Positions 4,549-4,723 of a DNA stretch of 5,025 nucleotides are shown in pieces. The stretch comes from a virus. Lineage: Duplodnaviria; Heunggongvirae; Uroviricota; Caudoviricetes. The stretch lies in the IMG/VR virus record IMGVR_UViG_2681813313_000011; one strand, given 5' to 3'. The notes below the pieces were generated by a model, which worked only from the letters and a program-made list of their open reading frames with translations, had not been told where the DNA came from and made no database searches. Made by a program: the position numbers and the translations under genes. Every line of letters begins with the position of its first letter. The first letter of the stretch is position 1.

Positions 4549-4723
4549 AGCCTGCTTCTCCTTGCCTTTCGGCACGTAAGAGGCTAACCTAGATTTGCCG
4601 TTCATAGATTGAGCCTCAGATTAATGTTAAGCGTCTTGCAGGACGCGTAATGTTAACTGGGGCTTTTCTCTATCTGCCTTTGGTGTTCATGCCTGAGACA
4701 GATAGCCTCAAGCACCCGCAGCC

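What the first reader, a model, noticed from the sequence alone, without database searches (positions are those of the whole stretch)
4622..4656. Perfect 9-bp direct repeats flanking a hairpin in the hok leader
The forward strand reads TAATGTTAA-GCGTC-TTGCAG-GACGC-G-TAATGTTAA: two identical 9-mers (4622-4630 and 4648-4656) bracket a 5-bp stem-loop, about 75-110 nt upstream of the hok start codon. Such symmetry is unlikely by chance and could be a protein-binding operator, part of the leader folding that controls hok translation, or the target region of an antisense RNA.
Basis: seen in the sequence. Interest (0 to 1): 0.4.

Follow-up and report, generated by a model that had tools for sequence, protein, structure and literature searches.

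The report
Stem of the Sok antisense RNA
The two identical 9-mers are the two arms of an RNA helix in the stem-loop of the Sok antisense RNA, the antitoxin of a prophage hok/sok toxin-antitoxin locus, so this is an ordinary part of a known and very common system.

Summary
TAATGTTAA occurs at 4622-4630 and 4648-4656, flanking GCGTC-TTGCAG-GACGC. The repeat alone is at chance level, with about one such 9-mer pair expected per window.

[quoted passage not shown] On the + strand it is the upper part of the single long stem-loop, the terminator, of the Sok antisense RNA (about 4597-4667). This is homologous to the annotated and experimentally studied 71-nt sokW of phage VT2-Sakai/Sp5.

The "direct repeat" exists because UUAAUGUUAA is self-complementary once U.G wobble pairs are allowed. 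The two copies pair as a 9-bp helix with a central tandem U.G/G.U.

On the - strand the same DNA is the top of the hok mRNA leader hairpin whose base pairs the anti-SD box (ucb) with the mok Shine-Dalgarno. There the wobbles become C.A mismatches and the hairpin is about 10 kcal/mol weaker.

The helix is kept through compensatory changes in three diverged lineages, while the repeat itself decays. This argues for RNA structure and against an operator or a transposon footprint. This clade carries a longer hairpin than other hok families, about 20 nt more.

It is already known biology and of low interest.

The parts
4597..4667 (+). Sok-type antisense RNA (antitoxin): a 5' single-stranded tail at 4597-4610, then one long stem-loop and a U-tract
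   Evidence: Maps onto the sokW misc_RNA annotated in AP000422 (L001 638-708) through alignment A1. Folds at -31.9 kcal/mol, z = -5.75. sokW RNA of Sp5 was detected by northern blot and shown to be an antitoxin (PMC8621323).
4562..4590 (+). Predicted Sok promoter: -35 TTGCCT (4562-4567), 17-nt spacer, -10 TAACCT (4585-4590); the start at 4597 is 7 nt downstream
   Evidence: Read from the sequence. Its position matches the annotated sokW start. The complementary block TTAGCCTCTTAC is invariant across the hok loci aligned. It did not pass the generic sigma-70 scan, so this part is inferred.
4611..4619 (+). Outer stem of the Sok hairpin, 5' arm (GAGCCUCAG). Its complement on the minus strand carries the mok SD GAGG (4617-4614).
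   Evidence: Pairs with 4657-4665. In hok mRNA the SD pairs with ucb with probability 0.85-0.99.
4621..4629 (+). Middle helix, 5' arm (UUAAUGUUA). Overlaps the first copy of the 9-mer (4622-4630).
   Evidence: Pairs 4621-4656 through 4629-4648, with tandem U4625.G4652 and G4626.U4651. The pairs are conserved or covary in 22 distinct variants.
4631..4646 (+). Inner stem-loop: GCGUC(U) / (G)GACGC with apical loop UUGCAG. Corresponds to the 16-nt insertion relative to the Rfam consensus.
   Evidence: cmscan alignment shows 16 inserted bases in the loop of model hairpin 58-83. The G-C to A-U compensatory change at the first pair is seen in L095 and L250.
4648..4656 (+). Middle helix, 3' arm (UAAUGUUAA). 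This is the second copy of the 9-mer.
4657..4671 (+). Outer stem, 3' arm (CUGGGGCUU), and the U-rich tail UUUUCUCU (terminator). The complement on the minus strand carries the ucb / anti-SD box AGCCCC (4664-4659).
   Evidence: The ucb and SD naming follows the R1 model in PMC9841398.
4303..4717 (-). hok mRNA. The 5' end GGGUGCUUGAGG (tac, 4717-4706) pairs with fbi (4343-4331). The leader matches Rfam RF01794 at 4717-4543.
   Evidence: Rfam 110 bits against a gathering score of 59. MFE -170.6 kcal/mol, z = -7.5. tac/fbi pair table. Truncated forms switch to tac/ucb pairing.
4724..4752 (-). hok promoter: TTGGCG, 17-nt spacer, TAGAAT
   Evidence: The only promoter-like site found in 4250-4850.
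4307..4324 (-). hok mRNA intrinsic terminator
4393..4605 (-). mok ORF (70 codons) with the in-frame hok ORF (51 codons, 4393-4548)
   Evidence: ORF list. Pfam HOK_GEF PF01848, 79.9 bits. Annotated hokD in the identical RefSeq genome.

Best explanation

Sok is transcribed on the + strand from about 4597 and ends in the U-tract at about 4667. It has a 14-nt single-stranded 5' tail and one hairpin of about 24 bp that doubles as its intrinsic terminator.

The two 9-mers are the arms of the middle helix. Because 5'-UUAAUGUUAA-3' is self-complementary when U.G pairs are allowed, an inverted repeat of it is at the same time a direct repeat.

The 5-bp hairpin between the copies is the tip of the same stem. 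It is a clade-specific extension: other hok families have a 32-37-nt element where this clade has 52-54 nt.

On the minus strand the same DNA forms the top of the hok-mRNA leader hairpin. At the base of that hairpin the anti-SD box (ucb, AGCCCC) pairs with the mok Shine-Dalgarno (GAGG). There the two wobble pairs become C.A/A.C mismatches, so the mRNA version is much weaker.

Shown: sequence, homology, predicted folds, covariation, and the function of the orthologous sokW from the literature.

Inferred: the stable version serves Sok termination and stability, and the weakened mRNA version is kept meltable so that the leader can refold and Sok can extend the duplex through it.
For: - Locus identity: Rfam RF01794 scores 110 bits at 4543-4717. 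Pfam HOK_GEF matches. The window is 100% identical to an E. coli chromosome with hokD annotated. The locus is 93% identical to hokW/mokW/sokW of VT2-Sakai, whose annotated sokW RNA spans the feature.
- Literature: sokW is a 71-nt antitoxin RNA, seen by northern blot, partly dependent on RNase III and Hfq (PMC8621323).
- Sok-strand fold: -31.9 kcal/mol, z = -5.75, with 4621-4629 paired to 4648-4656 including tandem U.G/G.U.
- Strand asymmetry: the element is -27.8 kcal/mol in Sok sense and -17.0 in hok sense. The same direction holds in all 25 distinct hok-family elements examined.
- Covariation: 96.4% of cells pair in Sok sense against 79.2% in hok sense. Four pairs have changes on both sides, reached by 0-1 of 500 shuffles. 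With 22 distinct variants, 93.2% of cells pair and the tandem wobble is kept in 21-22 of 22.
- hok mRNA folds reproduce the R1 scheme. The full-length form has tac/fbi and ucb/SD-mok pairing with the feature on top. Truncated forms have tac/ucb pairing with the feature as a free-standing hairpin (model in PMC9841398).
Against: - No transcript data exist for this exact window. The Sok ends are transferred from the VT2-Sakai annotation.
- The Sok promoter is weak by consensus and was not picked up by the generic scan.
- The Rfam family named 'sok' matches the hok-mRNA strand, so it supports the locus but not the antisense transcript itself.
- The covariation rests on three lineages only, and the sequences are related. 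The proposed reasons for the strand asymmetry and for the longer hairpin are inference.
Confidence: 0.9

Rival explanations
1. The primary selected function is on the minus strand. The hairpin is a hok-mRNA leader element that nucleates the ucb/SD-mok stem and so tightens translational repression of mok/hok. The Sok-strand structure is a by-product.
For: In the full-length mRNA fold the feature caps the ucb/SD-mok stem with pair probabilities of 0.85-1.0. The long type makes this stem-loop 6-9 kcal/mol more stable than the short types in hok sense (-17 against -7 to -12). The hairpin persists in both the closed and the open predicted conformations.
Against: The conserved U.G/G.U pairs are mismatches on this strand. 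Only 79.2% of cells pair here against 96.4% on the Sok strand. Several single-sided changes are wobble-neutral only on the Sok strand. The two roles are not exclusive, because the DNA is shared.
Confidence: 0.35
2. The 9-bp direct repeats are a target-site duplication or a slippage product. They would flank a small inserted palindromic element, a footprint of a mobile element or a recent insertion into a short ancestral hairpin.
For: Relative to the Rfam consensus the window has a clean 16-nt insertion in the hairpin loop. Nine bp is a common target-duplication length (established knowledge: IS1, IS10, IS50). Close relatives with 99% identical hok genes carry a short hairpin instead (L005).
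Against: No 'empty site' allele with a single TTAACATTA copy exists in 2.9 million viral contigs or 241 million metagenome records. None was seen among the best E. coli genome hits, all of which are two-piece, filled sites. L005 differs over the whole hairpin top (18% identity), not by a simple indel. The long hairpin is shared by loci with strongly diverged Hok proteins in Kluyvera and Pseudocitrobacter, so it is old. In those loci the repeat has decayed while the pairing is maintained.
Confidence: 0.04
3. The repeats are a DNA operator for a phage or host regulatory protein that binds two direct half-sites.
For: There are two identical 9-mers 26 bp apart between divergent promoters (hok promoter at 4724-4752, Sok promoter at 4562-4590). 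sokW RNA disappears on prophage induction in Sp5 (PMC8621323), so some transcriptional input is conceivable.
Against: The site lies inside both transcripts, not at either promoter. The repeat identity is not conserved: the longest shared direct word is 7 nt in L095 and 4 nt in L074, while the helix is conserved. A centre-to-centre spacing of 26 bp puts the half-sites on opposite faces of the helix. No candidate protein is known.
Confidence: 0.03

Closest known systems
hokW-mokW-sokW of Stx2 phage VT2-Sakai (Sp5) / 933W
   Same: Same locus type and layout. About 93% identical over 378 nt. The feature is identical except for one loop base (A to C at 4639). sokW is annotated across it. Function as a type I toxin-antitoxin system has been shown (PMC8621323).
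   Different: The Sok 5' tail and sokT region differ at several positions (4591-4608). The window's Hok differs from HokW by a few residues. The window's prophage is a different lambdoid element, with Q, RusA and DUF968 as neighbours.
hok/sok of plasmid R1 (the archetype; Rfam RF01794 consensus)
   Same: The predicted architecture is the same: tac/fbi and ucb/SD-mok pairing, a sokT hairpin, and a Sok RNA with a 5' tail plus a single terminator hairpin (model in PMC9841398).
   Different: The hairpin between ucb and SD-mok is about 20 nt longer here, seen as a 16-nt insertion against the consensus. The Hok proteins share only about 44% identity (PMC8621323).
hokD (relF) of E. coli K-12 Qin prophage
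   Same: The toxin gene is nearly identical: 99% over window 4360-4562 (H26).
   Different: The K-12 copy matches only up to about 4562. It therefore lacks the mok start, the Sok gene and the feature. The window carries the complete locus.
Short-hairpin hok loci (hokC/gef; PPompW-prophage hok of Stx2_499)
   Same: Same family and same flanking boxes, AAAAGCCCC ... GAGGC. L005 has a 99.4% identical hok ORF.
   Different: The hairpin top is 19-24 nt instead of 39-41 nt and is unrelated in sequence (18% identity). There is no direct repeat.

Membership tests
[quoted passage not shown] | Small hydrophobic Hok/Gef toxin ORF | tested here: met
   PF01848 HOK_GEF at 79.9 bits against a cut-off of 22. 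A 51-aa ORF at 4393-4548 on the minus strand, annotated hokD in the identical RefSeq record.
[quoted passage not shown] | Overlapping upstream mok reading frame with its own SD | tested here: met
   A 70-codon ORF at 4393-4605 on the minus strand, in frame with hok. GAGG lies 8 nt upstream of its AUG. mokW is annotated at the same place in VT2-Sakai.
[quoted passage not shown] | Conserved structured hok mRNA leader (Rfam RF01794) | tested here: met
   110 bits against a gathering score of 59, full-length match to model positions 1-157 at 4717-4543 on the minus strand.
[quoted passage not shown] | 5'-3' fold-back (tac/fbi) and ucb/SD-mok pairing that switch after 3' truncation | tested here: met
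   Met in silico only. The full-length MFE pairs 4717-4706 with 4331-4343 and ucb with SD-mok. Truncated forms pair tac with ucb.
[quoted passage not shown] | Cis-antisense Sok RNA with its own promoter, a single-stranded 5' tail and a terminator hairpin, overlapping the mok translation start | tested here: met
   Met at sequence level. It is homologous to the annotated sokW. It folds as a tail plus a hairpin plus a U-tract. The helix is supported by covariation. Transcription from this window was not tested; the orthologous RNA has been detected (PMC8621323).
[quoted passage not shown] | Sok represses Hok synthesis; the duplex is cleaved by RNase III | not testable with these tools
   Shown only for the Sp5 orthologue (PMC8621323).
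Transposable-element footprint with 9-bp target-site duplication | Existence of empty-site alleles, or the insert occurring at other sites | tested here: not met
   No hits for the single-copy junction in viral or metagenome collections. The top E. coli hits are all filled sites.
Direct-repeat protein operator | Repeat sequence conserved as such, independent of complementarity | tested here: not met
   The repeat shrinks to 7 nt (L095) and 4 nt (L074), while 93-96% of helix cells stay paired through compensatory and wobble changes.

The most novel reading that the evidence does not exclude
The clade-specific extension is not just a longer terminator. Three observations suggest this:
- the tandem U.G/G.U is invariant (21-22 of 22 variants);
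- the apical loop flips repeatedly between CNGCAA and its reverse complement, with no intermediates;
- the whole Sok stem/sokT block is exchanged as a cassette between loci with 99% identical toxins.

Together these would mean that the hairpin top is a selected specificity or kinetic determinant. It could be a second loop-loop contact between Sok and the hok leader, or a strand-asymmetric 'meltable' helix that sets how fast the duplex propagates. Such a determinant would let up to 8 co-resident hok/sok copies in one E. coli genome work without cross-talk.
Probability: 0.12. Interest if true: 0.4.

Novelty: already known. Interest (0 to 1): 0.13.

Why it matters
It matters little beyond annotation. 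The feature is an integral part of a well-studied antitoxin RNA and toxin mRNA leader that is carried by about 78% of complete E. coli genomes.

Three points are useful:
- RefSeq leaves the Sok gene unannotated at all matches examined.
- The Rfam family called "sok" actually models the hok-mRNA strand.
- A "direct repeat" can be a plain RNA helix when the unit is a wobble palindrome.

The strand-asymmetric stability (G.U in the antisense RNA, C.A in the target) and the hairpin-loop inversions are small, testable leads for those who study antisense RNA kinetics and toxin-antitoxin specificity.

Tried and rejected
- **Repeat as a significant signal on its own:** rejected. The shuffle expectation is 0.96 per window.
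- **Insertion with target-site duplication, or slippage deletion:** I searched for the single-copy junction in viral contigs and metagenome contigs and found nothing. A synthetic deletion query against E. coli genomes returned only two-piece, filled-site matches among the top 15. This last test is inconclusive for the remaining records.
- **Long-range pairing of the hairpin's 3' arm (4624-4638) with hok codons 7-11 (4516-4530):** 13/15 complementary, 0 of 300 shuffles in the window. It drops to 12/15 in close relatives and is absent in the P1-like, Kluyvera and Pseudocitrobacter loci. It is not used in the MFE fold. Treated as lineage-specific coincidence.
- **Generic promoter/terminator scan:** it found the hok promoter and terminator but neither the Sok promoter nor the long Sok hairpin. 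This is a limitation of the scan.
- **Genome-contig pattern scan:** the 16 specified bases were loose, so about two-thirds of the 120 loci were chance hits in unrelated phyla. Only 41 true hok leaders were used.
- **Literature search for 'sokD' and similar names:** nothing relevant. The hok diversity preprint does not discuss Sok structure.

Full report
**Observation**

The + strand at 4622-4656 reads TAATGTTAA-GCGTC-TTGCAG-GACGC-G-TAATGTTAA. The repeat finder reports the exact 9-mer pair with 26-nt spacing. The repeat cannot be extended on either side.

A 9-mer repeated within 50 nt is not remarkable in 5 kb. The window has two such pairs, and dinucleotide shuffles give 0.96 on average. A repeat pair that also brackets a perfect 5-bp hairpin occurs in 1.4% of shuffles. 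Conservation carries the argument.

**Context**

The window is the late-regulatory region of a lambdoid prophage. It is 100% identical to the chromosome of E. coli Z1322HEC0003.

The minus strand carries:
- antiterminator Q, RusA and a DUF968 protein;
- a small ORF;
- a 51-codon Hok/Gef toxin gene at 4393-4548 (PF01848; annotated hokD);
- an in-frame 70-codon mok ORF starting at 4605.

Rfam RF01794 ("sok") matches 4717-4543 on the minus strand at 110 bits, against a gathering score of 59. That model begins with the hok mRNA 5' end (GGGUGCUUGAGG) and ends at the hok AUG. It therefore describes the hok leader, not the antisense RNA.

In the cmscan alignment the finding falls in the second hairpin of the model (positions 58-83). 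The window carries 16 extra bases, gcguccugcaagacgc, in its loop.

**The antisense gene**

The locus is 93% identical to mokW/hokW/sokW of phage VT2-Sakai. In that record a 71-nt "SokW antisense RNA" is annotated on the strand opposite hokW. Through the alignment it maps to window 4597-4667 on the + strand and fully contains the finding. The feature is identical there apart from one loop base.

Takada and colleagues showed the following for the Sp5 locus (PMC8621323):
- hokW-sokW is a working type I toxin-antitoxin system;
- sokW RNA has 71 nt complementary to the hokW 5' UTR;
- the RNA is seen on northern blots;
- mutating its -10 element unleashes HokW toxicity;
- RNase III and Hfq contribute partially.

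Upstream of 4597 lie TTGCCT (4562-4567) and TAACCT (4585-4590) with a 17-nt spacer. The complementary block is invariant in the family alignment. This promoter is an inference from position and conservation. The generic sigma-70 scan did not report it, although it did find the hok promoter (TTGGCG-17-TAGAAT, 4752-4724) and the hok terminator (4324-4307).

**Why there is a direct repeat**

Folded as RNA, 4597-4672 on the + strand gives a 14-nt free 5' tail and one long hairpin, followed by UUUUCUCU. The energy is -31.9 kcal/mol, z = -5.75, and no shuffle does as well.

The hairpin has these parts:
- outer stem 4611-4619 with 4657-4665;
- a bulged A;
- a 9-bp helix 4621-4629 with 4648-4656;
- an A.G mismatch;
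- an inner stem 4631-4636 with 4641-4646.

The 9-bp helix is formed by the two "direct repeat" copies, offset by one base. The pairs are U-A, U-A, A-U, A-U, U.G, G.U, U-A, U-A, A-U. The decamer UUAAUGUUAA is self-complementary once U.G pairs are allowed, so an inverted repeat of it is also a direct repeat. The "hairpin between the repeats" is simply the tip of the same stem.

**The other strand**

In hok mRNA the wobble pairs become a 2x2 CA/CA internal loop. The element AAAGCCCC...GAGGC folds at -17.0 kcal/mol in hok sense against -27.8 in Sok sense. The isolated top folds at -7.4 against -13.3.

The full-length hok mRNA (4717 to about 4303) folds at -170.6 kcal/mol, z = -7.5. In this fold:
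- the 5' end (4717-4706) pairs with 4331-4343, which is the tac/fbi interaction;
- the box AGCC.C (4664-4659) pairs with the mok SD region (4617-4612);
- the finding forms the top of that stem-loop, with pair probabilities of 0.85-1.0.

After removing the 3' end, the 5' end pairs instead with the AGCCCC box. The SD region moves into the next hairpin, and the finding persists as a free-standing hairpin.

This reproduces the closed/open scheme described for R1, in which the anti-SD (ucb) sequesters the mok SD in the full-length form and is captured by the tac stem in the truncated form (PMC9841398).

**Comparative evidence**

A pattern scan for the conserved 5' end of hok mRNAs, plus BLAST hits, gave 41 true hok leaders with 25 distinct versions of this element. 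Further scans raised the number of distinct long-type versions to 22, from 138 loci.

The long type (52-54 nt) occurs in three lineages:
- the window lineage (E. coli, E. albertii, Kluyvera cryocrescens, P1-like plasmids, many phage contigs);
- a Kluyvera genomosp. 3 lineage;
- a Pseudocitrobacter lineage, which has strongly diverged Hok proteins.

Other hok loci, such as hokC, carry a 32-37-nt element.

In all 25 elements the Sok-sense fold is more stable than the hok-sense fold, by 3.4-12.4 kcal/mol. For the long type:
- 96.4% of pair cells are standard pairs in Sok sense, against 79.2% in hok sense;
- four pairs change on both sides, reached by 0-1 of 500 shuffles;
- sliding the partners drops pairing to 34-46%;
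- RNAalifold predicts the same helix independently.

With 22 variants, 93.2% of cells pair, and the tandem U.G/G.U is kept in 21-22 of 22.

The repeat as such is not conserved. The longest shared direct word between the two arms is 7 nt in the Kluyvera lineage and 4 nt in L074, yet the helix is intact. This pattern fits an RNA helix selected on the + strand and does not fit a DNA operator.

**Origin**

A 16-nt "insertion" flanked by 9-bp repeats invites a target-site-duplication reading. Four results argue against it:
- The single-copy junction is absent from the viral and metagenome collections.
- The best E. coli matches to a synthetic deletion allele are all two-piece, filled sites. This covers only the top rows and is not exhaustive.
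- The nearest short-hairpin relative (L005) has a hok ORF 99.4% identical to the window, yet it differs over the whole hairpin top (18% identity) and partly over the sokT hairpin (72.5%). This looks like a cassette exchange, not an indel.
- The long form is shared by deeply diverged loci.

I therefore rate this rival low.

**Mechanism, and what is shown versus inferred**

Shown here:
- the sequence and the homology;
- the predicted folds on both strands;
- covariation and strand asymmetry.

Shown elsewhere for the orthologue:
- the RNA exists and neutralises HokW.

Inferred:
- the long, wobble-containing helix gives Sok a strong terminator and protective hairpin;
- the same DNA yields a deliberately weaker hairpin in the mRNA, which caps the ucb/SD-mok stem but can be opened when Sok, after initial contact through its 5' tail, extends the duplex through the region for RNase III cleavage.

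The near-invariance of the tandem wobble, in a helix whose other pairs covary, is the main hint that the asymmetry is selected. It has not been tested.

**Verdict**

The object is a known component of a known, widespread system. The Sok segment is found in 4246 of 5426 complete E. coli genomes, with up to 8 copies per genome. Novelty is low and interest is low.

Noticed in passing
window 4636-4641 (loop); L074, L139, L166, L253-L262: The apical loop occurs in both orientations. In hok sense it reads CNGCAA (N = T, G, A) or the exact reverse complement TTGCN'G (N' = A, C, T), in both the 54-nt and the 52-nt classes. No half-way states were seen among 138 loci and 22 distinct elements. This looks like recurrent inversion of the loop between the perfect 5-bp inverted repeat GCGTC/GACGC.
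   Followed up: partly
window 4580-4658 compared with L005 (Stx2_499 PPompW prophage): The Sok cassette is mosaic. L005 is 99.4% identical to the window in the hok ORF and 96.7% in the 3' UTR. It is only 18% identical in the hairpin top and 72.5% in the SD-mok/sokT hairpin. This suggests exchange of the antitoxin/target module between loci.
   Followed up: partly
window 4625-4626 with 4651-4652: The tandem U.G/G.U wobble is kept in 21-22 of 22 distinct long-type variants, although four other pairs of the same helix show compensatory changes. In all 25 hok-family elements the Sok-sense hairpin is more stable than the mRNA-sense one.
   Followed up: partly
window 4624-4638 and 4516-4530: The hairpin's arm is 13/15 complementary to hok codons 7-11 (AUG UUA AUC GUC CUG), with 0 of 300 shuffles reaching this. 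It is 12/15 in close relatives and absent in diverged long-type loci. Probably coincidence.
   Followed up: yes
window 4543-4717 minus strand: Rfam RF01794, named 'sok antitoxin', matches the hok-mRNA strand. The model starts at the hok mRNA 5' end and ends at the hok AUG. A hit therefore reports the wrong strand for the antitoxin RNA (compared with the sokW annotation).
   Followed up: partly
E. coli RefSeq genomes, matches to window 4597-4672: The Sok segment is present in 4246 of 5426 complete genomes (8493 places, up to 8 per genome), but none of the listed matches has an annotated feature under it. K-12 hokD matches only up to about 4562 and lacks the mok start and Sok.
   Followed up: no
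window 433-605 minus strand: Rfam STnc100 (RF02076) hit at 100.8 bits, next to a TerB-family pseudogene and a DUF3927 gene in the identical genome.
   Followed up: no
window 1376-1625 minus strand: A cluster of three tRNA genes downstream of Q: Arg-UCU, Arg-UCG and a CAU anticodon. ARAGORN calls the last one Met and RefSeq calls it Ile. This is typical of lambdoid/Stx-type prophages.
   Followed up: no
window 4359-4370 and 4739-4751: An inverted repeat of 8-12 nt lies between the hok 3' UTR and the region of the hok -35 box, which is outside the mRNA (I5/I6). No role is evident.
   Followed up: no
window 4590-4595 and 4605-4610: TAGATT occurs twice, 15 nt apart, around the predicted Sok start and in the Sok 5' tail. 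This segment is the most variable part between the window and VT2-Sakai.
   Followed up: no
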